Below, one piece after another: positions 5,394 through 33,909 of a stretch of DNA of 64,000 nucleotides (position 1 is its first letter; each line of letters starts with the position of its first letter). A program made the translations under genes and the position numbers. Source of the DNA: Escherichia coli (lineage in GTDB: Bacteria > Pseudomonadota > Gammaproteobacteria > Enterobacterales > Enterobacteriaceae); assembly GCF_024502345.1 (NCBI RefSeq), contig NZ_JALDNN010000001.1; one strand, written 5' to 3'. The notes under the pieces were generated by a model. The model did no database searches. It had not been told where the DNA came from and worked only from the letters and a program-made list of their open reading frames with translations.

Positions 5394-7271
5394 ATGAGGT
5401 TTATGATGGCTGGCCAGTATGAAAAAGCAATAACGATAAAACAAGCGATAGATTCAATTAATTTACGCCACTATCTTCTGCCTGCAATTCAGAGGAAGTT
5501 CGTCTGGAGCAGCAGTCAAATATGTTTGCTGTTTGATTCCATCATGCGAGACTACCCGATAAACTCTTTCATGATGTGGGATATCCGTAGTGCCAGTATT
5601 AAAAATGATTACAAATTCTATGAATTCCTGAAAGAATACTGTCAGCGATTTAATGAAGAAAACCCCTGCGTAGCAACAAATGCTGGATTTCATGATTTCA
5701 AGGCGGTGATTGATGGTCAGCAGCGTCTCACATCATTATATATTGGATTGTGTGGAACGTATGCGTATAAACAGCCCCGGGTGTGGTGGCCTTCGGCACA
5801 GGATGATCGCATCCTGCCGCCCAGAAAGCTTTACGTCGATTTAACAGCGCCACTTAATTCAGACGATGAGCTCATGATGAAGTATAACTTCAGGTTCCTG
5901 ACCGACAAGCAATACGCTGATTCACTTACAGACAACAAGCATCACTGGTTCTGCCTGCACGAAATATTCAAATACGAGCAACATGATTCGCCTGATGATA
6001 TTTTATTTAACGTTGTCGTACCAGAACTCGAAAAAAGAGGACTCATTTCCAGTGAATTTTCCAGAAAAACATTACTGAGACTTTATACAAAAATAAGAAC
6101 TGAGAACATCATCCACTACTTCAATGAGAGTAGTCAGGATATTGACCATGTGCTGGATGTTTTCATACGCACGAACAGCGGGGGGACAAAACTTGAGTTC
6201 TCCGACTTACTGATGTCAATAGCGGTAGCGCACTGGCAGGGTGATTTCAGAAGAGAACTGGATGAACTGACAAAAAACATTTATCAGAATAATGAAATGG
6301 GGTTTTATATTGAAAGAGACTGGTTCTTAAAAACCAGCCTGATGCTTATTGACTCTGACGTCCGGTTCAAAGTAAAAAACTTCACTTCAGAGGAGGTCGG
6401 TAAGATACAACAACAATGGTCTGAAATAAAATCCTGCATCAAGGAGACTTTTATTCTTATCAGGCGATTCGGCATCAATCCACAGTCTTTGATATCTAAA
6501 AATGCAGTCATTCCTGTGGTCTACTGGCTTTACAAAAAGCAAACCAGTGGACATCCATTATATACAACGATTAACCTCCTGAATAAAAACCACAATGAAC
6601 GCTCAGTAATTAGCCAGTGGTTTTACATGGTACTTCTGAAAGGGATCTTTGGAAGCCAGGCAGATGCGCTACTCACGAGTATCAGAGATGTAATGAAAAA
6701 TAGTCTTTCAGATATTCACTTTCCTCTTGAAAAGATTATTGACAGATATAAAGGCTCGAATAAAGACCTCAGATTTGACGACGAATACATCGAAAGCCTT
6801 CTCAATATCAGATATGGCGAAGGTCGTTGCCGCGCACTATTGCATCTTCTGTTCCCTGAAATGAATCCGACCGAGGTGTTTCATATTGATCACCTTCACC
6901 CAAGAAATCACTTCTCAAAGAAATATCTTGAAAAATTAGATTATGTTGCGAACTCACCAGAGAACCTCAGCTTTTATGAAAACCCGGAACACTGGGACAC
7001 CATACCTAATCTTCATTTACTGAATCATTCTCAGAATATAAGTAAACAGGATACTTCCCTGAAACAATGGCTATCTCAGCCATCAAACAACTATTCGCCA
7101 TCAATGCTGTTAGTTTCAGATGAAAATATTGAGTTCAGTCGCTTCCCGGAATTCTACAATGAACGAAGAAACGCCCTGAAGCAAAGACTACTGAATCGGG
7201 TATTTCTTACAACAAAAATAGATTCATCACCATCCACAATCGATACGGATGAAGAAATTCTCACCGACTGA
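5394..7271 (+). CDS. GmrSD-like DUF262/DUF1524 protein (putative Type IV modification-dependent nuclease)
   Basis: The N-terminal DUF262 hallmark DGQQRLTS is present. The C-terminus has a His-Me finger-like HIDHLHPRNHF...NLHLLNHSQNISK, as in DUF1524. Confidence 0.75.
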   Translation: MRFMMAGQYEKAITIKQAIDSINLRHYLLPAIQRKFVWSSSQICLLFDSIMRDYPINSFMMWDIRSASIKNDYKFYEFLKEYCQRFNEENPCVATNAGFHDFKAVIDGQQRLTSLYIGLCGTYAYKQPRVWWPSAQDDRILPPRKLYVDLTAPLNSDDELMMKYNFRFLTDKQYADSLTDNKHHWFCLHEIFKYEQHDSPDDILFNVVVPELEKRGLISSEFSRKTLLRLYTKIRTENIIHYFNESSQDIDHVLDVFIRTNSGGTKLEFSDLLMSIAVAHWQGDFRRELDELTKNIYQNNEMGFYIERDWFLKTSLMLIDSDVRFKVKNFTSEEVGKIQQQWSEIKSCIKETFILIRRFGINPQSLISKNAVIPVVYWLYKKQTSGHPLYTTINLLNKNHNERSVISQWFYMVLLKGIFGSQADALLTSIRDVMKNSLSDIHFPLEKIIDRYKGSNKDLRFDDEYIESLLNIRYGEGRCRALLHLLFPEMNPTEVFHIDHLHPRNHFSKKYLEKLDYVANSPENLSFYENPEHWDTIPNLHLLNHSQNISKQDTSLKQWLSQPSNNYSPSMLLVSDENIEFSRFPEFYNERRNALKQRLLNRVFLTTKIDSSPSTIDTDEEILTD

Positions 7272-7474
7272 ACGTTCAGCCCCGATAGTATTGGGGCTTC
7301 AGTATTTATCATCAGCGCAACGTTTCTACTGGCCTGGCTGAAAGAGCATTGGCTACACAACCGGGCAAACGAACTCTCAGTGCAACGTATGACATACAAA
7401 GCCTGTCATCAATATGAAATTGCGATAAAATCGGGCCAATAACAGTACTTAAGAATCATACAACAGGATACAAA

Positions 7475-9031
7475 ATGACAAGCCTTCAGCAGCGTGCAGA
7501 GCTACACCGTCAAATCTGGGCCATTGCCAATGATGTCAGAGGCTCCGTAGATGGGTGGGATTTTAAACAGTATGTACTCGGTGCACTTTTCTACCGCTTC
7601 ATCAGTGAGAATTTTTCCAGCTACATGGAAGCAGGGGATGAGAGCATACATTATGCAGCACTTGATGACAGCATCATTACCGATGACATCAAAGACGATG
7701 CCATCAGGACTAAAGGCTATTTCATCTACCCGAGCCAGCTGTTCTGCAACGTTGCCGCTAAAGCGAACACCAACGACAGGCTGAATGCTGATTTAAACAG
7801 TATCTTCGTCGCTATAGAAAGCTCTGCCTACGGCTACCCGTCAGAGGCCGACATCAAAGGCCTGTTCGCCGATTTCGATACGACCAGCAATCGACTGGGG
7901 AACACAGTTAAAGACAAAAACAGCCGTCTTGCCGCGGTTCTGAAAGGGGTTGAAGGGTTAAAACTTGGTGACTTCAACGAACATCAGATTGACCTGTTCG
8001 GTGATGCCTATGAGTTCCTGATTTCTAACTATGCCGCAAATGCCGGTAAGTCAGGCGGTGAGTTCTTTACACCGCAGCACGTCTCCAAGCTGATTGCACA
8101 ACTGGCTATGCACGGGCAGACCAGCGTTAACAAAATCTACGACCCGGCAGCGGGTTCCGGCTCACTGTTGTTGCAGGCGAAAAAACAGTTTGATAACCAC
8201 ATCATCGAAGAAGGCTTTTTCGGTCAGGAAATCAACCATACGACCTATAACCTGGCGCGTATGAACATGTTTTTGCACAATATCAACTACGACAAGTTTG
8301 ATATCAAGCTGGGTAATACACTGACTGAGCCGCACTTCAGAGATGAAAAACCGTTTGACGCCATCGTATCTAATCCACCGTATTCGGTGAAATGGATTGG
8401 CAGCGATGACCCGACGCTGATTAACGATGAACGTTTTGCCCCGGCTGGCGTTCTGGCCCCCAAATCCAAAGCTGACTTTGCGTTTGTATTACATGCACTG
8501 AACTATCTTTCTGCCAAAGGTCGTGCTGCGATTGTCTGCTTCCCGGGTATTTTTTACCGTGGCGGCGCAGAGCAGAAAATCCGTCAATATCTGGTCGACA
8601 ATAACTATGTCGAAACCGTGATTTCACTGGCACCGAACCTGTTCTTTGGCACCACCATTGCCGTCAATATTCTGGTGCTGTCTAAACATAAAACGGATAC
8701 CAAAGTTCAGTTTATTGATGCCAGCGAATTATTCAAAAAAGAGACTAACAACAATATCCTGACCGATGCCCATATCGAACAGATTATGCAGGTATTTGCC
8801 AGCAAGGAAGATGTTGCTCATCTGGCGAAATCTGTCGCGTTTGAGACCGTTGTCGCTAATGACTATAACCTGTCGGTGAGCTGCTATGTAGAAGCGAAAG
8901 ATAACCGCGAAATTATCAATATTGCTGAGCTAAATGCAGAGCTTAAAACTACGGTTAGCAAAATCGACCAGTTGCGTAAAGATATTGATGCGATTGTGGC
9001 TGAAATTGAAGGCTGCGAGGTGCAGAAATGA
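7475..9031 (+). CDS. hsdM: Type I (family IC) restriction-modification methyltransferase subunit
   Basis: Near-identical, by recall, to EcoR124I HsdM ([15 protein letters not shown]...). Motifs [10 protein letters not shown] and NPPY are present. Confidence 0.95.
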
Positions 9032-10200
9032 GCGAGTTGAGTTATCTGGAAAAATTGCTGGATGGGGTTGAGGTTGAGTGGAAATCATTGGGAGATGTTG
9101 TAAATTTTCAGCGCGGAAGGCGGCTCGTAAAATCTCAGTTAGAAACCAGAGGTAAATATGCGGTTTACCAAAACAGCATGACACCACTCGGTTACTATCA
9201 TGAGTATAATGTCGCAGCTCAATCTTCGTTCATTATCTGTGCGGGTGCAGCCGGTGAAATTGGTTATAGCGAAAATGAATTTTGGGCTGCCGACGATGTT
9301 CATTTCGCAATCACACCAGAATATATAAATGACAGGTTTTTGTTTCATTTTTTGTTGACGCAAAAGAATAAAATTTCAGGACAAGTACGCCGTGCCAGTA
9401 TTCCGCGTCTCTCAAAGTCAGTAATTGAAAAACTTGAATTCCCCATCCCCTGCCCGGATAATCCGGAAAAGTCCCTTGCCATCCAGTCTGAAATCGTTCG
9501 GATTCTGGATAAATTTACTGCACTTACCGCTGAGCTTACCGCTGAGCTTAACATGCGTAAAAAACAGTACAACTACTATCGCGACCAGTTGCTGAGTTTT
9601 GATGAGGGTGAGGTTGAGTGGAAGGCTTTGGAGGAAGTCTCAACTTTTGCTAATGGAAAGGGGCATGAAAAAGACATATCAGAAGACGGTAAATATATTG
9701 TTGTAAACTCTAAGTTTATATCTACCAATGGCGAAGTCGCCAAGTTATCAAACAAACAGCTATGCCCTCTTTTTAAAGACGATATTCTTTTGGTTATGAG
9801 TGACCTGCCCAATGGCAAAGCACTTTCAAAAACATTTATTGTTGATGAAGATCATAAATACACTTTAAACCAACGTATTGGTGGAATTACAGTAAAAAAC
9901 AGTAATGAATTACTCCCTAAGTTTTTGCACTATTTTTTAAATAGAACCCCGCAATTGCTGAAACATGACAATGGTGTTGATCAAACAAATTTGCGTAAAG
10001 GTCAAATACTTGAAGTAAAAATACCAATAATTTCACTCATCAAACAAGTTCAGATCGTTGAAACTCTTGATAAATTCGATACTTACACTAAGTCGATTTC
10101 AGAAGGCCTCCCGCGCGAAATCGAGCTGCGCCATAAACAGTACGAGTACTATCGTGATTTATTGTTCAGCTTCCCGAGACCAGAAACCGCCAGCAACTGA
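9028..10200 (+). CDS. hsdS: Type IC specificity subunit
   Basis: 4-nt overlap with hsdM. Conserved IC regions are present ([34 protein letters not shown]... and [22 protein letters not shown]), with two variable TRDs. Confidence 0.95.
9523..9550 (+). repeat. 12-bp tandem repeat CTTACCGCTGAG x2 (plus a 4-nt partial) encoding TAEL-TAEL in the hsdS central spacer
   Basis: Read directly: 9523-9534 and 9535-9546 are identical. Confidence 0.95.
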
Positions 10201-10316
10201 CGGACCATTGATACCGGCAGGGTTTGTTCTCACCCGCCCGGTATCAGGCTTTAAGAATGCCGGAAGATGCTTCTGATACCCTTCCGGAATTTGCCAGATG
10301 ACGCACAGGATGCACC

Positions 10317-13300
10317 ATGACACAACAGATACACACCATTGCTGAATCCAATAACTTTATCGTCCTTGATAAATACACCAAAGTTCTGGAGAACGGCGAC
10401 AGCTACCAGAGCGAATCGGATCTTGAGCGGGAACTGATTCAGGACCTTCTGAATCAGGGCTATGAATTTATATCCGTTAAGTCACCGACAGCGATGCTGG
10501 CGAATGCACGGGACCAGCTTCAGCATCTTAATGGTGTGGTGTTTAACGAAAGTGAATGGCGGCGCTTCGCAGAGCAGTATCTGGACAGCCCCAGTGACAG
10601 CAGCCTGGACAAAACTCGTAAAATCCATATCGACTATATCTGTGATTTCACGTTTGATGACGGTCGTCTGGAAAACATCTATCTGATAGATAAAAAGAAC
10701 CTGCTGCGCAATAAGGTGCAGGTCATTCAGCAGTTTGAACAGACCGGCTCACACGCTAACCGTTATGACGTCACCATTCTGGTTAACGGCCTGCCACTGG
10801 TGCAAATCGAACTCAAAAAGCGCGGCGTGGCTATTCGTGAAGCCTTTAACCAGATACACCGTTACAGCAAGGAAAGCTTTAACAGCGACAACTCCCTGTT
10901 TAAATACCTGCAACTGTTTGTGATATCTAACGGAACCGATACCCGGTACTTTGCCAGTACCACTAAGCGGGATAAAAACAGCTTTGATTTCACCATGAAC
11001 TGGGCGAAGTCGGATAACACTCTGATTAAGGACCTGAAGGACTTTACCGCCACCTTCTTCCAGAAACATACCCTGCTGAATGTTCTGTTTAATTACAGCG
11101 TGTTTGACAGCAGCCAGACTCTGCTCGTCATGCGCCCCTATCAGATTGCCGCCACTGAGCGAATCCTCTGGAAAATTAACAGCTCATTTAAAGCGAAGAA
11201 TTGGTCAAAACCCGAAAGCGGCGGGTTTATCTGGCATACCACCGGGTCAGGCAAAACCCTGACCAGTTTTAAGGCTGCACGACTGGCAACCGAACTGGAC
11301 TTTATAGACAAAGTCTTCTTCGTGGTCGACAGAAAAGACCTTGATTACCAGACAATGAAGGAGTATCAGCGCTTTTCTCCGGACAGCGTCAACGGTTCGG
11401 ATAATACAGCAGGCCTCAGAAGAAACCTGGATAAGGACGATAACAAAATCATCGTCACAACCATTCAGAAACTCAATAACCTGATGAAAGCCGAAGCTGA
11501 CCTGCCCGTCTATCAGCAGCAGGTAGTGTTTATCTTTGATGAGTGTCACCGCAGCCAGTTTGGTGAGGCCCAGAAAAACCTCAAAAAGAAATTCAGACGC
11601 TTTTATCAGTTTGGTTTTACCGGTACGCCTATTTTCCCGGAAAATGCACTGGGGGCAGAAACCACAACCAGCGTGTTCGGGCGTGAGTTACATTCTTACG
11701 TCATTACTGATGCGATTCGTGATGAAAAAGTACTGAAGTTTAAGGTGGACTATAACGATGTCCGCCCACAGTTTAAGTCTCTTGAAACGGAAACAGACGA
11801 GAAAAAACTCAGCGCGGCTGAAAACCAACAGGCATTTTTGCACCCCCTGCGTATCCAGGAAATAACGCAATACATTCTCAATAACTTCCGGCAGAAAACA
11901 CACCGAACCTTCCCGGGAGCTAAGGGCTTTAACGCCATGTTAGCAGTTAGCAGCGTGGACGCGGCGAAAGCTTATTACACGACGTTTAAAATGCTACAGG
12001 AAGAAGCAGAGAAGAAATCTGGCAGCTATAAATGCCTTCGGGTGGCAACCATCTTCTCCTTTGCTGCAAATGAAGAGCAAAGCGCCATTGGTGATATTAC
12101 TGACGAAAGCTTTGATACCAGTGCAATGAACAGCAGCGCGAAGGAATTCCTGGATTCAGCCATTGATGACTATAACAATCACTTTAAAACCAATTTCAGC
12201 ACCGACAGTAACGGTTTCCAGAACTACTACCGCAATTTAGCTCAACGAGTGAAAAATCAGGATATTGACCTTCTCATCGTGGTGGGAATGTTCTTGACTG
12301 GCTTTGATGCCCCGACGCTTAACACTCTTTTCGTTGACAAAAACCTCCGTTATCACGGCCTGATGCAGGCATTTTCCCGCACAAACCGTATCTATGATGC
12401 CACCAAAACCTTCGGCAATATCGTGACTTTCAGGGATCTGGAGCGTCCGACCATTGATGCCATCACACTATTTGGCGACAAAAACACCAAGAATGTGGTG
12501 CTGGAAAAAAGCTACGAAGAGTACATGCAGGGCTTTACCGATGCGGCAACCGGTGAGGCTAAACGAGGTTTTATGGCTGTTGTTTCGGAGCTGGAGCAGC
12601 GCTTCCCTGACCCTGCCAGTATCGACAGTGAAAAAGAGAAAAAAGCCTTCGTCAAACTGTTTGGTGAATATCTGCGGGCAGAAAACATCCTGCAAAACTA
12701 TGATGAATTTGCCACGCTGAAAGCCCTGCAGAAGGTTGATATTAGTGACCCGGAAGCGGTAGAAACCTTTAAAGCAGAGCACTATGTGGATGATGAAAAA
12801 TTTGCTGAATTACAAACCATTCGTCTCCCGGCAGAACGTAAAGTTCAGGACTATCGCTCAGCATACAATGATATCCGGGACTGGCAGCGACGCGAAAAAG
12901 CATCAAACGACAGGGATAAATCAACCACAGACTGGGATGACGTGGTGTTTGAAATTGACCTGCTGAAGTCGCAGGAAATTAACCTGGATTACATCCTTGG
13001 TCTGATTTTCGACCACAATCGTCAGAAAAAAGGTAAAGAAGCCCTGACTGAAGAGGTCAGACGCTTAATCCGCTCAAGTCTGGGCAACCGTGCCAAAGAA
13101 GGTCTGATTGTTGACTTTATTCAGCAAACTAACCTTGATGACATGCCGGACAAGGCCAGTATCATTGATGCATTCTTTACCTATGCTCAGCGTGAACAGC
13201 AACGGGAAGCAGAGGCGTTGATTAAGGAAGAAAACCTCAATGAAGAGGCTGCAAGGCGCTATATCCGCACATCACTAAAACGGGAGTATGCCACCGAAAA

Positions 13301-13433
13301 TGGGACGGAGCTAAATGAGACGCTACCAAAGCTCAGTCCGCTGAATCCTCAGTACAAAACGAAAAAGCAGACTGTATTCCAGAAAATTGGGGCATTTATC
13401 GAAAAATTTAAAGGGGTTGGAGGACACCTCTAG
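10317..13433 (+). CDS. hsdR: Type IC restriction endonuclease/helicase subunit
   Basis: 1038 aa with helicase motifs TGSGKT and DECHRSQ. Its length and sequence fit an EcoR124I-type HsdR. Confidence 0.95.
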
Positions 13434-14516: not shown

Positions 14517-15782
14517 ATGGCACTGACTGACGCAAAAATCCGGGCTGCAAAGCCCACTGACAAGGCTTATAAACTCACTGACGGGGCCGGCATGTTCCTG
14601 CTGGTTCATCCTAATGGTTCCCGTTACTGGCGTCTCCGTTATCGTATTCTGGGTAAGGAGAAAACCCTGGCACTTGGTGTGTATCCGGAAGTTTCTCTCT
14701 CCGAAGCTCGTACAAAACGGGATGAGGCCCGAAAACTGATTTCGGAGGGGGTTGACCCTTGCGAACAGAAAAGAGCTAAAAAAGTAGTCCCTGATTTACA
14801 ACTCTCTTTTGAACATATTGCACGACGCTGGCATGCCAGTAATAAACAATGGGCACAATCACACAGCGATAAAGTACTCAAAAGCCTCGAGACACACGTT
14901 TTCCCCTTTATCGGCAACCGGGATATCACAACACTCAGTACCCCGGACCTGCTTATCCCTGTTCGTGCTGCAGAAGCTAAACAAATTTATGAAATCGCCA
15001 GTCGTCTGCAGCAAAGAATATCTGCTGTAATGCGTTATGCCGTACAGTCTGGCATCATCAGATATAACCCGGCTCTGGATATGGCTGGTGCATTGACCAC
15101 GGTAAAACGCCAGCATCGCCCTGCTCTGGATCTTTCACGCCTGCCTGAACTTCTGTCGCGTATTGACGGTTATAAAGGCCAGCCTGTCACCCGACTGGCA
15201 GTTATGCTGAATTTACTGGTTTTTATTCGTTCCAGTGAACTCAGATATGCCCGCTGGTCTGAAATTGATATTGACAATGCCATGTGGACTATTCCAGCCG
15301 AACGCGAACCTCTGCCAGGCGTAAAATTTTCATACCGGGGCTCCAAGATGCGAACACCACATCTTGTGCCACTCAGCCAACAGGCTGTAGCCATACTGGC
15401 AGAACTTCAGACATGGGCAGGTGAAAATGGTCTGATCTTTACGGGAGCACATGACCCACGTAAACCAATCAGTGAAAACACCGTAAATAAAGCCCTGAGG
15501 GTTATGGGGTATGACACAACCCAGGATGTCTGTGGTCATGGATTCCGGGCGATGGCATGTAGTGCATTAATAGAATCAGGTTTGTGGTCCCGCGATGCTG
15601 TGGAACGCCAGATGAGCCATCAGGAGCGTAATGGTGTACGTGCTGCGTATATCCATAAAGCCGAACATCTGGAAGAACGTCGACTTATGCTACAGTGGTG
15701 GGCCGATTTTCTGGATGCAAACAGAGAAAGATTTATCAGTCCATTTGAATATGCAAAGATTAATAATCCATTAAAACAATAA
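14517..15782 (+). CDS. int: P4-type tyrosine integrase (tRNA-Phe island integrase)
   Basis: N-terminus MALTDAKIRAAKPTDKAYKLTDGAGMFLLVHPNGSRYWRLRY is typical. The C-terminal catalytic region contains HGFR...Y. Confidence 0.9.
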   Translation: MALTDAKIRAAKPTDKAYKLTDGAGMFLLVHPNGSRYWRLRYRILGKEKTLALGVYPEVSLSEARTKRDEARKLISEGVDPCEQKRAKKVVPDLQLSFEHIARRWHASNKQWAQSHSDKVLKSLETHVFPFIGNRDITTLSTPDLLIPVRAAEAKQIYEIASRLQQRISAVMRYAVQSGIIRYNPALDMAGALTTVKRQHRPALDLSRLPELLSRIDGYKGQPVTRLAVMLNLLVFIRSSELRYARWSEIDIDNAMWTIPAEREPLPGVKFSYRGSKMRTPHLVPLSQQAVAILAELQTWAGENGLIFTGAHDPRKPISENTVNKALRVMGYDTTQDVCGHGFRAMACSALIESGLWSRDAVERQMSHQERNGVRAAYIHKAEHLEERRLMLQWWADFLDANRERFISPFEYAKINNPLKQ

Positions 15783-29486: not shown

Positions 29487-29508
29487 TGAATAGCCACGGA
29501 TAATCTAG
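29487..29508 (+). repeat. solo terminal-IR remnant of the IS3-family element found at 33425-38146
   Basis: TGAATAGCCACGGATAATCTAG versus TGAATCGCCACGGATAATCTAG at 33425 (21/22 match). Confidence 0.7.
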
Positions 29509-29510
29509 TT

Positions 29511-29550
29511 TGTCTGCTTCGTGCCAAAAGCGGACATTGCTACATCACAA
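29511..29550 (+). repeat. hairpin repeat copy 1 (TGTCTGCT-loop-AGCGGACA) plus 10-bp TACATCACAA
   Basis: Read directly. The partner copy is at 32483-32518. Confidence 0.85.
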
Positions 29551-29637
29551 TGCGTTATGGTCAACATCAGAATGCAGCCCTTGTGTTGTGACGTGTAGTC
29601 TGGCCTAAACGCAGTTGCACTACATTACCTCGTGGGG

Positions 29638-29886
29638 TCAGCGACGGCCCCGTTTCAGTTCACGTACACAGGGATCATACTCATCTGCATAGCCACCAAA
29701 GTCATGGCTGGGCATGAAGTACCACTTTTCACCTTTCCAACCAGCGATCCGGGTGGTCGGTTTGGTTTTATTCAGAACAACAATACAGACGCCGACGGGA
29801 GACACTGGAGGAAGAAGTCGTTGCACCACACACTCACGATTGCCCACATCAATCCAGTCTTTGACGTGAATTTCAGGATGGTTCAT
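29638..29886 (-). CDS. hypothetical protein (82 aa)
   Basis: ORF-track ORF, co-oriented with and downstream of the AAA_13 ATPase, inside the hairpin-bracketed segment. Confidence 0.4.
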   Translation of the reverse strand: MNHPEIHVKDWIDVGNRECVVQRLLPPVSPVGVCIVVLNKTKPTTRIAGWKGEKWYFMPSHDFGGYADEYDPCVRELKRGRR

Positions 29887-30166
29887 TGTTTATCTTCATG
29901 TGATGGAATTGCTTACCGTAATGCATCCGATTACCGTGCAAGATCATGTATCCTGTCGCCTTCCTGCTCCCTTGAGGTGGCGCTGCCTTGGTACAGTCAG
30001 CACTCTGAATGTCAGGCCCAGCCGCGAGGCCGGAAGCTCATCAGGTCGCTGCGGTAGGGGAAAACGGTCCGGGTAACAGACCGTAATCGCCTGCTGGTGG
30101 TTATTGGCCCTGACTGGAGCCGCACTGAAAACTGAAGCGCATTAATATACTCGCGCCTCCGACAGG

Positions 30167-32305
30167 TCAGGCAATTTCTTCCAGCGCATCGTCATTTGCC
30201 GGTGGAGGAGGAAGTATAAGCGCGTCGCACTCCCTGATGACATATTCAGGAATGAGATCAAACCGGGCAGGATCCAGCTGACAGATAAATTCATTTTCAA
30301 TGTGGTAGGTCTCATTCATGAATTTACGTATTACTGCGTTCTCGAGTCCGGTCTGAAGCAACCTGAACACCTGCAGTTTCTCGTAGCCATTACGGCAGAG
30401 CAGATAAAGCGCACGTATACGATCCGGGTCGGTGAGCTGAACGAAAGTGGCCTGGTAGTCAAAGCCGGGAATGCGATCGGCGATTGCCTGGCAGCCGAAG
30501 GCAACTTTTTCTGCGGACATTTCAGGATGTCCCACTCCCTGCACAACGGGTTCACGGGTGTCGATGGGCGTTTCACGGTGATGAAAAAGGTTTGACAGCA
30601 CCTGATAGGCATCACCGAGGTCGTCCATAATTTCATAATGTCGGCGAAGATAGATCAACTTGATGATGTCTTCACTATCAGAGTCAGTGACAGACTGGCA
30701 GATCTGAGCAAAAGTGCGGATATCACTTTCACCGATGAGCTGCTCGGTGATGCAGCCTGCGCTGTAGTGCAAGTGTGAGGCCGTAACCAGATTACTGAAC
30801 AGCTTCCTGACGGACTTCAGTGTATCAATAATAGGCTCAACATCGTGAGTCAGCATCAGTACCGTTTCATTTTTCAGGCACTCACCGGTATTGCGGCGAA
30901 ACAGCATCTCCAGGATGGCAAATTTCTTGTTCTTATCAAACGATGAAATCGGGTCGTCAAGAATGATCAGGCCTGGCTTCTTGGCTAAGCATTCATACAT
31001 AAACAGAACAATGGCAAAGGCGTTGCGTTCACCGTAGCTGAGATGCTGGCTGCCGCCGCTGACGTAGCCTTCAAAGTCTTCGTGGCGCAGTTTCAGCCGA
31101 CATTTATCGCCTTCCCCAGTGATATCCACCTGATAACGATAGCCTGCGTAAGCCAGAAAGGTATTGATATCGGTTTTATGCTTGAGGATCAGCTTCTGCA
31201 TGCCCTGACGCTGCTTATTTATTTGACCCTGCAGGCGTCCGGCCTGCGTCGTCAGGTCGTCTAAAGAGGTATTGAGACTGGCTACGGTGCGGGCCGTTTT
31301 ATCCGACTGCAGCTCCGGGAAAAACTTCACGTCTAGGCGACAGGCTTCCAGTGCAGCCTTGACGTTGGTTGAAGCGCTGAACGTAAAGCCGTTAAGAGTC
31401 TTAAGGGTATTCAGCATATTTATCAGGCTGTCTGTCTGCTTCTTCACTGTCACGAGATATTCTTCGTGCTGTTTTTCCAGCCCACTTTTTAGGGTTGTAA
31501 TATCAGCGAGGCGGGCACGGGCAGGCTCTGAAAAATATTCGCCGAGTTTATCTAGCACGCCGATCAGGCCGATCAGGTTTTTAATGACAGCCTTATCATA
31601 CTCCGCGCTGACGCGGCTAATCTGCTCGGCCTTTTCACGGGAGTCGCCAGTACAGAACGGACAGCAGCCGTCGGATAGCGCGGAGAATTTCTCATACCCC
31701 CGGGTCTGCCACTCGATCCACTCTACGCTGCTTTTACTTTGGATGTACGGCTTATAAGATTCCAAACCGTCGGGAATGTGCTGAAGCTTGTTGCCAGCGG
31801 ATAAGCCTTTCATACCGGTAGACGTTTTTGCAATCCCGGTACTACTCAGCTTAAATGCGGCGCTGAGTTCCCCCAGGTGCGTGATGAATTCTTCAAGCCC
31901 GACGTTATCAGCAAACTGCTGCCGTATGGCCACGACCATGGCTTCGATTTCGCGTTCTGTCTCGTGATACGCTTCACTTTTGATGAAGATGTCAAAACTA
32001 TTACTTACTAACTCGTCTGGTTGAAAAGTGAATTGATCGACATATTTTTCATTAAAGCACATGACGTTTTGCAGGCCATCGACACCAGTTACCCTAGGCT
32101 GTACTGCATCGGGATTAGAACCACGGTATCTAAACGGAAGCAGGTCGCTGAGACCCTGTTCATCCCCGTTTACCGTACACTGAATCGCGCGGGAAATGGT
32201 GCTTTTTCCGGTGCCGTTAGGCGCAAATTTAATATTTAGTTTTTTTTCTGCCAGAGTTATATTTGCTTTATCGATGTTATTACAGCAATTAATTTCAATT
32301 TCCAT
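30167..32305 (-). CDS. AAA_13 / RloC-PrrC-like ABC-type ATPase (candidate anticodon nuclease or abortive-infection protein)
   Basis: Walker A APNGTGKST, a coiled-coil insert with CCPFC, signature LSYGERNAF and Walker B LIILDDP. The C-terminal region contains RRHYE...FHHRE. Confidence 0.65.
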   Translation of the reverse strand: MEIEINCCNNIDKANITLAEKKLNIKFAPNGTGKSTISRAIQCTVNGDEQGLSDLLPFRYRGSNPDAVQPRVTGVDGLQNVMCFNEKYVDQFTFQPDELVSNSFDIFIKSEAYHETEREIEAMVVAIRQQFADNVGLEEFITHLGELSAAFKLSSTGIAKTSTGMKGLSAGNKLQHIPDGLESYKPYIQSKSSVEWIEWQTRGYEKFSALSDGCCPFCTGDSREKAEQISRVSAEYDKAVIKNLIGLIGVLDKLGEYFSEPARARLADITTLKSGLEKQHEEYLVTVKKQTDSLINMLNTLKTLNGFTFSASTNVKAALEACRLDVKFFPELQSDKTARTVASLNTSLDDLTTQAGRLQGQINKQRQGMQKLILKHKTDINTFLAYAGYRYQVDITGEGDKCRLKLRHEDFEGYVSGGSQHLSYGERNAFAIVLFMYECLAKKPGLIILDDPISSFDKNKKFAILEMLFRRNTGECLKNETVLMLTHDVEPIIDTLKSVRKLFSNLVTASHLHYSAGCITEQLIGESDIRTFAQICQSVTDSDSEDIIKLIYLRRHYEIMDDLGDAYQVLSNLFHHRETPIDTREPVVQGVGHPEMSAEKVAFGCQAIADRIPGFDYQATFVQLTDPDRIRALYLLCRNGYEKLQVFRLLQTGLENAVIRKFMNETYHIENEFICQLDPARFDLIPEYVIRECDALILPPPPANDDALEEIA

Positions 32306-32482
32306 ACCTAATCCTTTACGGCAAAGACACTGAGCAGGCCCCGTATATTGCAGGCCCGATTAATTATTTAAGCTGAAGCCAGAACATATAAGCACCGTTT
32401 CATTTTTGAGTAAAGCACTCCGGGATTCGCCCTTGGTACCGCAGCGCCGGAGCAGTTGTTTTATAGAGCGTATGTACGGCGC

Positions 32483-32518
32483 TTGTGATGTATGTCCGCT
32501 TCGTGCCAAGAGCGGACA
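32483..32518 (+). repeat. hairpin repeat copy 2 (TTGTGATGTA plus TGTCCGCT-loop-AGCGGACA)
   Basis: Read directly. The hairpin has the same orientation as copy 1, while the adjoining 10-mer is inverted. Confidence 0.85.
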
Positions 32519-32588
32519 TTTGCACCCTCAGTACCCGCACCAGACTAAGCCGGCTCAGCAATGTCGGCGTTGCTGATACTGACAGACG

Positions 32589-33424
32589 TTATGCCGTTTT
32601 AAAGCGACGTTTCCGGTGTATCACCATGAGAGCGACAATTACCGCCACCGCAATTGTCGCGGTCCCCCGGAAGACGACTGATGAATCTCCTAGGATGATT
32701 TCCATGAATGATGATAAAAACTGGCCGGAGAATATAGCCATAGAAAGCCAGGCAAGGTTACGTCCCCGGACGCGAGCGTGACTCTGCTCGACTGTCATAT
32801 GATTCACAAGCGGCACCGACAGACCAAACCCACAACTCATTAAAACCCCGCCAGCGATGTAGAACACTACATTATCAGCGAATGAAAATATGAAATGTCC
32901 GGCAGCGTAGCAGCTAAACGCCGTGTACAGATTTCCGTACTCACGTAAACGCGCTATGAGGCGCGGCATCATCGCAGCAGCCCCGACGGCGACCAGTGAG
33001 ATAAACGACAGAAAGTATCCGGTTTCTGCTGCCCCAATAGCCATGCAGCTAAACACCTGCGGAATGATGATAATGCTGGTGAAGAAGCAAATCATGGACA
33101 GCAGGGCTGCAAAAAGCACAGGCGCTAATCGAGTCGCACTCACCGATTCGCTTTCTCCGGCGTTTTCATTCATGTTTTCTGTCCCAGAGGACAATTGTTA
33201 CGGCACAAACGCCAGCTGCATAACCAGAAGAACCTAGGCAAAAAGATGAAGCAAAAACGGCCACTGCCAGCCAAGGGTTGCAAGTAATCCGCCTATAAAC
33301 AGAAAAATGACACCGCCCAGCTCAATCAACATTCCCTGCGAAGGTATCATTTTCAGGCAAGCCTGACCGCTATGAAACGAGGAAATCAATCCGGTTCCTG
33401 CTGACATGACGATGGCGGTATCTG
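32589..33424 (-). pseudogene. MFS-type transporter remnant: 5' end removed by IS insertion, two in-frame stops
   Basis: The 6-TM ORF at 32589-33194 continues in the same frame upstream through TAA (33198-33200) and TAG (33234-33236) into further TM-like sequence, up to the IS end at 33425. Confidence 0.6.
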
Positions 33425-33442: not shown

Positions 33443-33909
33443 CTAGACACTTCCGAGCCGTTGATAATACTGGTTTTCATATTCTGTCGGTGACATCTGA
33501 TCGCTAGAACCATGCCGACGCCTACTGTTATAAAACATTTCGATGTAATCAAAAATATCGCTGCGGGCTTCTTCCCGCGTTCCGTAGATCTTTTTCTTTA
33601 TCCGCTCGCGTTTCAGTAACTGGAAAAAGCTTTCTGCAACCGCGTTATCGTGGCAGTTACCACGACGGCTCATGCTGCCCTCCAGTCCGTGTGATTTCAG
33701 GAACGACTGCCACTCATGGCTTGTGTACTGACTGCCCTGATCCGAGTGAACCAGCACCTGTTTTTGGGGGTTACGCCGCCATACAGCCATCAGCAGTGCG
33801 TTCAGGACAATGTCCTTTGTCATCCGGGATTGCATTGACCAGCCGATAATTTTACGTGAGAACAGATCAACAACCACGGCAAGATACAGCCAGCCTTCGT
33901 GAGTCCTGA
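33443..33909 (-). pseudogene. IS3-family orfB, 3' part (exon 2 relative to the intron)
   Basis: The translation continues IRTHEGWLYLAVVVDLFSRKIIGW...HSDQGSQY...NAVAESFF. Confidence 0.85.

What the first reader, a model, noticed from the sequence alone, without database searches (positions are those of the whole stretch)
30167..32305. Stand-alone RloC-like protein with CPFC zinc hook and a PrrC-like R-x3-E...H arrangement
The protein has a split ABC ATPase: Walker A APNGTGKST, then about 430 aa later LSYGERNAF and LIILDDP. A coiled-coil insert between them contains CCPFC, the Rad50-like zinc-hook arrangement described for RloC. The C-terminal third contains LRRHYEIMDD...LFHHRE, an Arg-x3-Glu followed by His. 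This recalls the Arg/Glu/His anticodon-nuclease triad of PrrC, although the spacing differs from my recollection. The window also holds a Type IC R-M (7.5-13.4 kb) of the family that normally hosts prrC, but with no prrC between hsdS and hsdR.
Basis: partly seen in the sequence, partly recalled or inferred. Interest (0 to 1): 0.55.

Follow-up and report, generated by a model that had tools for sequence, protein, structure and literature searches.

The report
RloC-clade ATPase with divergent nuclease-like tail
This plasmid gene encodes an untested relative of the tRNA-cutting phage-defence proteins RloC and PrrC; it keeps their ATPase, zinc hook and key catalytic-type residues, but its C-terminal domain is so altered that standard models no longer recognise it.

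Summary

- **What fits RloC/PrrC.** The ATPase carries the Walker-B/D-loop 'DDP[IV]SSxD' shared by PrrC and RloC. It also has an invariant CPxC hook in a helical insert. Relatives are often embedded in type I R-M operons or defence islands.
- **What does not fit.** Pfam AAA_13 and the PADLOC PrrC model cover the nuclease domain of genuine PrrC and RloC-like controls, but they stop at residue ~490 here.
- **The His is wrongly assigned.** H575 is Lys in 26% of relatives and H576 varies. The invariant residues are R554, E558 (93%) and H668.
- **Two motifs survive.** LRRHYE and KFMNETYH mirror PrrC's LRNLYE and RIINFTSH and RloC-like RRxLE and RFINKYSH. They are 88-106 residues apart, against 28-41 in PrrC and RloC-like proteins. 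Fold searches give only weak, HEPN-enriched hits.

My best reading is a large, uncharacterised RloC-clade subfamily (PADLOC candidate PDC-S06, model PDLC04889). It is probably an ATP- and zinc-hook-gated HEPN-type RNase. No activity has been tested.

The parts
30167..32305 (-). 712-aa ORF: PrrC/RloC-clade ABC ATPase with a zinc-hook insert and a divergent C-terminal domain. RefSeq WP_009654821, annotated 'AAA family ATPase'.
   Evidence: ORF; Pfam AAA_13, E 7e-18; PADLOC PDC-S06 model PDLC04889, E 1e-297, full length; annotation
32198..32224 (-). Walker A / P-loop APNGTGKST (residues 28-36)
   Evidence: K34 is 100% conserved in 121 representatives
31136..32008 (-). Helical (coiled-coil-like) insert in the ATPase head, residues ~100-390
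   Evidence: AF2 model: helices 111-387. Foldseek's best matches are SMC/Rad50/RecN heads
31652..31663 (-). CPFC zinc-hook-type motif (residues 215-218), in a low-confidence loop between helices 193-207 and 226-235
   Evidence: C215 100%, P216 98%, C218 99% in 121 representatives. pLDDT <50 at 214-217. RloC-like proteins carry the same CP[FY]C or CxFC
31016..31042 (-). ABC signature-type motif LSYGERNAF (residues 422-430)
30935..30970 (-). Walker B / D-loop LIILDDPISSFD (residues 446-457). The 'DDP[IV]SSxD' form is shared with PrrC and RloC-like proteins.
   Evidence: A viral-contig scan with this pattern returned almost only PrrC-like, RloC-like and this-family ORFs
30842..30853 (-). H-loop LTHD (H487, invariant)
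30206..30736 (-). All-alpha C-terminal domain (residues 524-700). It matches no Pfam family and no solved structure significantly. It is the candidate divergent HEPN/ACNase domain.
   Evidence: (pLDDT 86.8)
30632..30649 (-). Motif 1, LRRHYE (R554-x3-E558). Aligns with PrrC LR320NLYE324 and RloC-like RRxLE.
30356..30583 (-). Family-specific segment (~residues 575-650) between the two motifs.
   Evidence: Motif spacing is 88-106 residues here, against 28-32 (PrrC) and 33-41 (RloC-like). H575 is 74% His and 26% Lys
30302..30325 (-). Motif 2, KFMNETYH (K661-x6-H668). Resembles PrrC R349IINFTSH356 and RloC-like RFINKYSH or KFINEYSH, and is HEPN Rx4-6H-like.
   Evidence: H668 100%, K661 90%
29638..29886 (-). 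82-aa ORF downstream, with no family match. It accompanies the gene on the plasmid and in the E. coli chromosomal copy but is missing from the Pantoea copy, so it is not an obligate partner.
29508..29538 (+). 31-nt hairpin-containing repeat at the downstream edge of the ~3-kb gene module
   Evidence: module limits
32490..32520 (+). Second copy (90% identical) of the 31-nt repeat at the upstream edge of the module

Best explanation
The gene encodes a single-protein defence or stress effector of the PrrC/RloC clade of ABC ATPases.

**Shown**
- An ABC ATPase head with the clade-specific DDP[IV]SSxD Walker-B/D-loop.
- A helical insert carrying an invariant CPxC hook.
- A conserved all-alpha C-terminal domain.
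- Relatives placed in type I R-M operons, beside sbcCD, and in defence islands and prophages.

**Inferred**
- The C-terminal domain is a strongly diverged HEPN-type anticodon-nuclease domain.
- R554 and E558 (helix 546-560) and K661 and H668 (helix 657-674) would correspond to PrrC R320/E324 and R349/H356. A family-specific helical subdomain of about 65-75 residues is inserted between them.
- By analogy with RloC, the ATPase and zinc hook would keep the RNase off until a DNA-linked signal releases it (DNA breaks, loss of restriction activity, or a phage anti-restriction factor). It would then cut tRNA and shut down translation, as in abortive infection.
For: 1. **Clade membership of the ATPase.**
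 - Pfam AAA_13 matches at E 7e-18.
 - The RloC-type PDC-S06 models match at E 1e-14 to 1e-10.
 - A DDP[IV]SSxDxN scan of viral contigs returned three colinear groups: PrrC-like, RloC-like and this family.
2. **Hook.** CPxC is 98-100% conserved in 121 representatives. The same CP[FY]C occurs in RloC-like proteins.
3. **Catalytic-type residues.**
 - The only 100%-conserved residues of the C-terminal domain are R554 and H668. E558 is 93% conserved and K661 90%.
 - Motif 1 lies 105 residues after Walker B here, against 109 in PrrC-like and 122 in RloC-like proteins. From the H-loop the distances are 67, 69 and 78.
 - Motif 2 reads KFINETYH or RIINQDNH in this family, RIINFTSH in PrrC, and RFINKYSH or KFINEYSH in RloC-like proteins.
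 - Only 2 of 1944 background ORF segments carry both motifs in order. Both come from loci fetched by the Walker-B pattern.
4. **Alignments.** hhalign repeatedly puts R554/E558 on PrrC R320/E324 and on RRxLE. The best local match of residues 640-705 to the RloC-like profile is KFINETYH on RFINxxSH.
6. **Context.**
 - 15 of 80 genome loci have type I hsd genes within 4 kb. The gene often sits directly after hsdS (gap -9 to +21 bp) and before hsdR.
 - 7 of 80 are next to sbcCD (gap 8-26 bp).
 - RhuM-Fic, Fic and ArdA genes recur nearby.
 - The 62%-identical E. coli/plasmid relative sits among TIR, KAP NTPase, AAA_15/21 ATPase and VapBC genes.
 - phrog_2801 matches at E 2e-119.
Against: - **HMMs that recognise the ACNase domain do not recognise this one.** AAA_13 covers RloC-like controls over profile positions 1-713 and PrrC over 486-687. 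Here it stops at position 572, residue 490.
- **PADLOC PrrC model.** It reaches profile positions 318-341 of 372 in three of the four RloC-like controls but matches only the Walker B motif here.
- **Own model only.** The C-terminal domain alone hits only its own model and no Pfam family.
- **Profile-profile E-values are not significant.** They are 0.05-0.1 against RloC-like and 0.08-0.2 against PrrC, even after removing the insert.
- **Motif departures.** Lys replaces the HEPN Arg, and the His spacing (x109) violates the published RloC rule.
- **Motif definitions.** I wrote the motif patterns after seeing the sequences.
Confidence: 0.55

Rival explanations
1. It is an RloC-clade ATPase sensor whose C-terminal domain is not an RNase. 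The domain would be a new effector or an adaptor that recruits or regulates partner nucleases (HsdR, SbcCD) or binds DNA. On this view the R/E/H conservation serves another chemistry or an interface.
For: - No significant sequence or fold match to any ACNase or HEPN domain.
- Tight operon-like juxtaposition with sbcCD in 7 of 80 loci and with hsdS/hsdR in others.
- A large family-specific subdomain at residues 575-650.
Against: - About 55 of 80 loci, and this window, have none of the recurring neighbour families (hsd, sbcCD, Fic/RhuM, SLFN-AlbA2, ArdA), so the protein must work alone.
- The invariant residues are exactly the PrrC/RloC catalytic types. They sit at the colinear position and in near-identical local motifs.
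Confidence: 0.25
2. It is an orthodox RloC: the same family and the same wobble-nucleotide-excising tRNase, with the reader's R-x3-E...H(575/576) triad.
For: - Architecture, hook and R-x3-E.
- Hits to PDC-S06 and AAA_13.
Against: - H575 and H576 are not conserved.
- No conserved His lies at x36-52.
- The ACNase part of AAA_13 and of the PrrC HMM is not matched, although RloC-like controls match at full length.
- RloC-like proteins match this family's HMM only in the ATPase lobe.
Confidence: 0.07
3. It is the ATP-binding subunit of an ABC or ECF transporter, or a housekeeping SMC/RecN-like DNA repair protein, as some automatic annotations suggest.
For: - JGI names such as 'energy-coupling factor transporter ATP-binding protein EcfA2'.
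- PDB sequence hits to transporter NBDs at E ~0.01.
- Foldseek hits to SMC and Rad50 heads.
Against: - Transporter similarity is confined to the signature and Walker B region, residues 410-498.
- There is a 290-residue helical insert with a zinc hook.
- No permease genes are conserved alongside.
- The distribution is patchy and mobile: 85 of 5426 E. coli genomes, plasmids and prophages.
- The gene is embedded in defence islands and R-M operons.
Confidence: 0.03

Closest known systems
RloC (Geobacillus kaustophilus / Acinetobacter baylyi; Davidov & Kaufmann 2008, PMC2610378; Klaiman 2012, PMC3458546)
   Same: - A single polypeptide with an ABC ATPase head using the DDP[IV]SSxD Walker-B/D-loop.
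- A helical insert with a conserved CxxC hook (CP[FY]C in some RloC-like proteins as well).
- A C-terminal all-alpha domain that begins with an L/M-R-R-x-h-E helix and later has [RK]-h-h-N-x-x-x-H.
- Mostly stand-alone, with a minority embedded in type I R-M loci and some next to anti-restriction genes.
   Different: - About 50-100 residues shorter in the coiled-coil arms (hook at ~215 against ~256-330).
- The C-terminal domain is not recognised by AAA_13 or PrrC HMMs that cover RloC-like proteins.
- The His lies x109 after the Glu, not x36-52.
- Tyr or Phe precedes the His, not Ser.
- Lys replaces Arg in the Rx6H motif.
- There is an extra subdomain of ~65-75 residues.
- I had no G. kaustophilus RloC sequence. 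The RloC-like controls were recognised by motif and by full-length AAA_13 matches.
PrrC anticodon nuclease (E. coli; R320/E324/H356)
   Same: - The same Walker-B/D-loop.
- The same distance from the H-loop to the R-x3-E helix (67 against 69 residues).
- LRRHYE against LRNLYE, and KFMNETYH against RIINFTSH.
- Relatives occupy the prrC position between hsdS and hsdR.
   Different: - PrrC is 396 aa with no coiled-coil or hook.
- PrrC is always linked to a type IC R-M, whereas here the gene lies 17 kb from the window's type IC system with unrelated genes between.
- The PADLOC PrrC HMM matches only the Walker B motif.
PADLOC candidate system PDC-S06 (model PDLC04889) / PHROG 2801
   Same: - Full-length match to PDLC04889 at E 1e-297.
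- phrog_2801 matches at E 2e-119, including the C-terminal domain.
- This is the family's existing database label.
   Different: - These are untested candidate labels with no assigned function.
- The other PDC-S06 models are orthodox RloC-like proteins. The label therefore merges this subfamily with RloC.
Other ABC-HEPN fusions of Anantharaman et al. 2013 (PrrC/RloC/APECO1_4465 group; PMC3710099)
   Same: That paper describes ABC ATPase plus C-terminal HEPN proteins, in R-M operons with RhuM or Fic/Doc genes and in prophages. This family shows the same contexts.
   Different: I could not locate APECO1_4465, so identity with that prototype is untested.
Rad50/SbcC/SMC
   Same: ATPase head fold and a CxxC hook in a coiled-coil insert.
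   Different: The arms are much shorter, there is no Mre11/SbcD-type obligate partner, and there is an extra C-terminal domain.

Membership tests
PrrC/RloC clade of ABC ATPases (Pfam AAA_13) | ABC head with Walker A, LSxGE signature, 'DDP[IV]SSxD' Walker-B/D-loop and H-loop | tested here: met
   - All motifs are present and 95-100% conserved.
- AAA_13 matches at E 7e-18, above its gathering score.
- The pattern scan recovers PrrC-like, RloC-like and this family together.
RloC | Coiled-coil/helical insert in the ATPase head with a conserved CxxC zinc-hook loop | tested here: met
   - C215-P-x-C218 is 98-100% conserved.
- It lies in a loop between helices of a ~290-residue helical insert.
- Zinc binding itself was not testable.
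RloC | C-terminal Arg-x3-Glu-x36-52-His triad, with Ser often preceding the His (PMC2610378) | tested here: not met
   - R554-x3-E558 is conserved, but no conserved His lies 36-52 residues downstream.
- H593 (x34) is variable.
- The invariant His is H668 (x109) and is preceded by Tyr or Phe.
RloC / PrrC | C-terminal domain recognisable as the ACNase (HEPN) domain by family HMMs | tested here: not met
   - Positive controls pass. AAA_13 covers profile 1-713 in RloC-like proteins and 486-687 in PrrC. The PrrC HMM reaches positions 318-341 of 372 in three of the four RloC-like controls.
- This protein matches AAA_13 only to profile 572 and the PrrC HMM only at 173-195.
- The C-terminal domain alone hits only PDLC04889.
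RloC / PrrC | Local catalytic motifs: h-R-[RN]-x-h-E helix and [RK]-h-h-N-x-x-x-H (HEPN Rx4-6H-type) | tested here: met
   - LRRHYE and KFMNETYH sit at colinear positions and involve the family's invariant residues.
- The joint motif occurs in 2 of 1944 background ORF segments.
- Caveat: I defined the patterns after seeing the sequences, and Lys replaces Arg.
HEPN superfamily | Four-helix up-down HEPN core detectable by structure comparison | tested here: inconclusive
- Foldseek finds nothing significant.
PrrC | Gene embedded between hsdS and hsdR of a type IC R-M that silences it | tested here: not met
   - In the window, hsdS and hsdR are 116 bp apart with no insert, and the gene lies 17 kb away.
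- Some distant family members do sit after hsdS.
RloC / PrrC | Anticodon-loop cleavage of tRNA; for RloC, wobble-nucleotide excision and zinc and DNA responsiveness | not testable with these tools
   This needs expression and tRNA northern blots or tRNA-seq.
PADLOC PDC-S06 (PDLC04889) | Full-length HMM match | tested here: met
   E 1.3e-297, residues 1-698 on profile positions 1-688 of 693.

The most novel reading that the evidence does not exclude
The C-terminal domain is a previously undescribed effector module. One version is a HEPN-derived RNase whose ~70-residue inserted subdomain gives it a target other than tRNA-Lys-type anticodon loops. The other is not an RNase at all. Either way it would be coupled to an RloC-type zinc-hook ATPase that senses DNA ends, in some lineages working in cis with SbcCD or type I restriction enzymes. 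That would define a separate single-gene defence system hidden inside the 'PDC-S06 / AAA family ATPase' label.
Probability: 0.25. Interest if true: 0.6.

Novelty: new variant of a known kind. Interest (0 to 1): 0.42.

Why it matters
**Size and spread of the family**
- At least 1100 clusters at 50% identity.
- About 58% identity is retained across Proteobacteria, Nitrospirae, Cyanobacteria and other phyla.
- It is carried on large IncHI1B/IncFIB resistance plasmids of Klebsiella, in 85 of 5426 complete E. coli genomes for this allele, and in prophages.
- It is annotated only as 'AAA family ATPase' or as an untested PADLOC candidate.

**What a confirmed tRNase activity would do**
- It would add a third structural type of ABC-ATPase-gated anticodon nuclease beside PrrC and RloC.
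- It would show how far the ACNase/HEPN domain can diverge before models lose it.
- It would give defence-finder tools a separate model.

**Link to DNA-break sensing.** The sbcCD and hsdS/hsdR juxtapositions offer a way to test the long-proposed link between DNA-break or restriction sensing and translation shut-off.

Tried and rejected
- **PDB by sequence or profile.** Only transporter NBD motifs matched.
- **Fold search of the C-terminal domain.** Foldseek on the C-terminal model gave nothing significant. The afdb50 library was unavailable, so AlphaFold models of PrrC and RloC could not be compared.
- **hhalign of the C-terminal domain.** Comparisons against PrrC and RloC-like profiles, including 81 alternative deletions of the insert, never beat E ~0.05. 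The RloC-like against PrrC control itself gives only E 0.004, so the method has little power here.
- **Small downstream ORF as partner or antitoxin: rejected.** It has no homologue in 80 family loci and is deleted in the 97%-identical Pantoea copy.
- **Functional link to the window's type IC R-M: no evidence.** It is 17 kb away, with an integrase gene and metal-resistance genes between.
- **Rfam on the module.** No RNA family matched.
- **HEPN paper supplement.** It holds no alignments.
- **APECO1_4465.** Locating it by gi order in APEC O1 failed.
- **PrrC-bearing type IC loci in E. coli.** I found none by annotation. PrrC was instead recovered from a viral contig through its LARP peptide.
- **Literature on the accessions.** No experimental paper turned up.
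Full report
**1. The observation**

The window has a 712-aa ORF at 30167-32305 on the minus strand.
- Walker A APNGTGKST (residues 28-36).
- CCPFC (214-218).
- LSYGERNAF (422-430).
- LIILDDPISSFD (446-457).
- LRRHYE (553-558).
- LFHHRE (573-578).

The separation between Walker A and the signature and Walker B motifs is about 394 and 418 residues, a little less than the 430 stated. The context statement is also correct. hsdM (7475-9031), hsdS (9028-10200) and an EcoR124-type hsdR (10317-13433) form a type IC R-M. A GmrSD gene lies upstream (5394-7271). Nothing sits between hsdS and hsdR.

**2. Where the DNA comes from**

- The region is 100% identical to large conjugative IncFIB/IncHI1B plasmids of Klebsiella and relatives. 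There the gene is annotated 'AAA family ATPase' and sits among metal-resistance genes.
- A 98.4%-identical copy lies in 82 E. coli chromosomes, in an integrase island next to ychF.
- The shared segment runs from about window 29521 to 32490. On the plasmid, two 31-nt hairpin-containing direct repeats bracket it (29508-29538 and 32490-32520).
- A 97%-identical Pantoea copy has the same limits. It lacks 29639-29972, which includes the 82-aa downstream ORF. That ORF also has no homologue in 80 family loci, so it is not an obligate partner.
- No Rfam family matches the module.

**3. Family**

- PADLOC gives a full-length match to candidate model PDC-S06 / PDLC04889 (E 1e-297). It gives weaker, ATPase-only matches to other PDC-S06 models and to LmuB. 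The PrrC model matches only the Walker B motif.
- Pfam AAA_13 matches at E 7e-18 but only up to profile position 572 of 713, which is residue 490.
- PHROG 2801 (unknown function) matches at E 2e-119, including the C-terminal domain.
- The family is very large. More than 3400 proteins were scored in the 90%-cluster database, with the best 120 at 57-99% identity from hosts in several phyla.
- In the 50%-cluster library, 1106 clusters match, and at least 120 are full-length colinear members down to 29% identity.
- I found no experimental paper on it. PDC-S06 appears only in survey lists and as a 'probable true positive' in a language-model preprint.

**4. Conservation**

Figures below are from 121 diverged representatives.
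- Invariant or nearly so in the ATPase: K34, C215-P216-x-C218, S423, E426, D450, D451, P452 and H487.
- Only two C-terminal residues are 100% conserved: R554 and H668.
- Others in that domain: E558 93% (Asp in most of the rest), S571 96%, R648 97%, K661 90%, E665 91%, E670 90% and N671 96%.
H575 is His in 74% and Lys in 26%, and H576 is variable.

**5. Structure**

- AlphaFold2 gives a confident full-length model (pLDDT 83.7). It has an ABC head, a helical insert from about residue 110 to 387 with a low-confidence loop at the CPFC, and an all-alpha C-terminal domain.
- Foldseek matches the whole model to SMC, Rad50 and RecN heads.
- The C-terminal domain modelled alone (residues 524-712, pLDDT 86.8) has no significant Foldseek match in the PDB.

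**6. Direct comparison with PrrC and RloC-like proteins**

- *PrrC sequence.* I recovered an E. coli-type PrrC (396 aa) from a viral contig through its published LARP peptide KYGDSNKSFSY. R320, E324, R349 and H356 are at the published positions.
- *Three groups.* A scan of viral contigs for the shared Walker-B/D-loop DDP[IV]SSxDxN gave 88 ORFs, most of which fall into three groups:
 - PrrC-like: about 370-412 aa, no CxxC.
 - RloC-like: 720-870 aa, CxxC at about 256-330, with RRxLE and then [RK]hhNxxSH.
 - This family: 690-745 aa, CxxC at about 215.
- *Positive controls.* The RloC-like proteins match AAA_13 over profile positions 1-713, and PrrC matches over 486-687. They match the other PDC-S06 models at full length, and three of the four match the PrrC HMM into the nuclease domain. 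PDC-S06 is therefore essentially the RloC superfamily, and the last ~140 positions of AAA_13 are the ACNase domain.
- *Negative result.* Against these working controls, the window protein's C-terminal domain is not recognised. RloC-like proteins match its model only in the ATPase lobe.
- *Profile-profile comparison.* The C-terminal domains are not significantly similar: E 0.05-0.1 against RloC-like and 0.08-0.2 against PrrC, with or without the insert. The accepted RloC-PrrC relationship itself scores only E 0.004 with these shallow profiles, so the test has little power.

**7. What nevertheless links the C-terminal domain to the ACNase domain**

- The hhalign alignments consistently put R554/E558 on PrrC R320/E324 and on the RloC-like RRxLE.
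- The distance from the H-loop to that Arg is 67 residues here, 69 in PrrC-like and 78 in RloC-like proteins.
- The best local match of residues 640-705 to the RloC-like profile is KFINETYH on RFINxxSH.
- The motif variants overlap across families. PrrC has RIINFTSH, and RloC-like proteins have RFINKYSH, KFINEYSH or KVVNPESH. This family has KFINETYH, KFINEAFH or RIINQDNH.
- The two motifs occur in this order in only 2 of 1944 background ORF segments. Both come from loci fetched by the Walker-B pattern.
- The main difference is the spacing between the motifs: 88-106 residues here, against 28-32 in PrrC-like and 33-41 in RloC-like proteins. This implies an inserted helical subdomain at about residues 575-650.
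- I defined the motif patterns after seeing the sequences, so this is supportive evidence, not proof.

**8. Genomic context of the family**

Counts below are from 80 genome loci.
- 15 have type I hsd genes within 4 kb. The gene often lies directly after hsdS (gap -9 to +21 bp) and before hsdR, which is the prrC position.
- 7 lie 8-26 bp from sbcD or sbcC.
- RhuM-Fic (5), Fic (3), SLFN/AlbA_2 ATPase (5) and ArdA (3) genes recur.
- The remainder, like the window copy, stand alone in variable regions.
- A 62%-identical relative, recorded in over 12,000 blocks of the contig index, was read on five plasmid and chromosome contigs. There it sits among an AAA_15/21 ATPase, VapBC, a CAP12-type TIR protein and a KAP NTPase.
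- These contexts match those described for PrrC/RloC-type ABC-HEPN proteins (PMC3710099) and for RloC (PMC2610378).

**9. Conclusion**

- The protein belongs to the PrrC/RloC clade by its ATPase and its hook, and its family is defence-associated.
- It is not an orthodox RloC.
- The most likely mechanism (confidence about 0.55) is an RloC-like, ATPase- and hook-gated HEPN-type RNase. R554, E558, K661 and H668 would be the catalytic residues, with a family-specific subdomain inserted between them.
- The main rival (about 0.25) is that the C-terminal domain is a different effector or an adaptor.
- I rate the finding a new variant of a known kind. It is of moderate interest because the family is huge, plasmid-borne and untested.

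Noticed in passing
window 29508-29538 and 32490-32520; L002 14812-14837 and 16132-16157; L003 8438-8463: A ~31-nt element with an internal 9-bp hairpin (core TGTCCGCTT-N8-AGCGGACA) brackets the ~3-kb ATPase module on the plasmid. It recurs at cassette junctions in the E. coli ychF island and in Pantoea. It could be a recombination or insertion hotspot, or a terminator-like repeat. It was not found in the other family loci.
   Followed up: partly
window 29638-29886 (-): An 82-aa ORF lies 280 bp downstream of the ATPase gene and has no Pfam or PHROG match. It is present on the plasmid and in the E. coli island (95% aa identity) but is precisely absent (indel 29639-29972) from the Pantoea copy. 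Its function is unknown.
   Followed up: partly
window 5394-13433: A defence cluster: a GmrSD/DUF262 type IV restriction gene (5394-7271) immediately upstream of a complete EcoR124-type type IC hsdM-hsdS-hsdR. A tyrosine integrase gene follows at 14517-15782.
   Followed up: partly
L004, L006, L007, L014 (downstream) and L066, L077 (upstream) of the family gene: In several phyla the family gene is separated by only 8-26 bp from sbcD-sbcC. This suggests co-transcription of an RloC-like protein with the hairpin and DNA-end nuclease SbcCD.
   Followed up: no
L017, L022, L024, L029 (genome loci): A recurring five-gene arrangement: hsdM, hsdS, a conserved 93-aa ORF (13 bp upstream), the family ATPase, a SLFN/AlbA_2-HATPase-wHTH protein, then hsdR. 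The 93-aa ORF has no Pfam match.
   Followed up: no
L180-L184 (loci of P0029): The 62%-identical relative was read on five plasmid and chromosome contigs. Four of them share the same island, made up of an AAA_15/21 ATPase, VapBC, a YuaX-CAP12/TIR pair and a KAP NTPase. In the fifth (L183) IS and resistance genes replace the TIR and KAP genes.
   Followed up: no
window 32589-33194 (-) and 33443-33877 (-): A truncated MFS transporter fragment (201 aa, matching only the C-terminal half of MFS_1) lies upstream of the module. Next to it is an ORF whose sequence looks to me like an IS3-family transposase orfB fragment (not scanned). Together they suggest a mosaic, IS-remodelled region.
   Followed up: no
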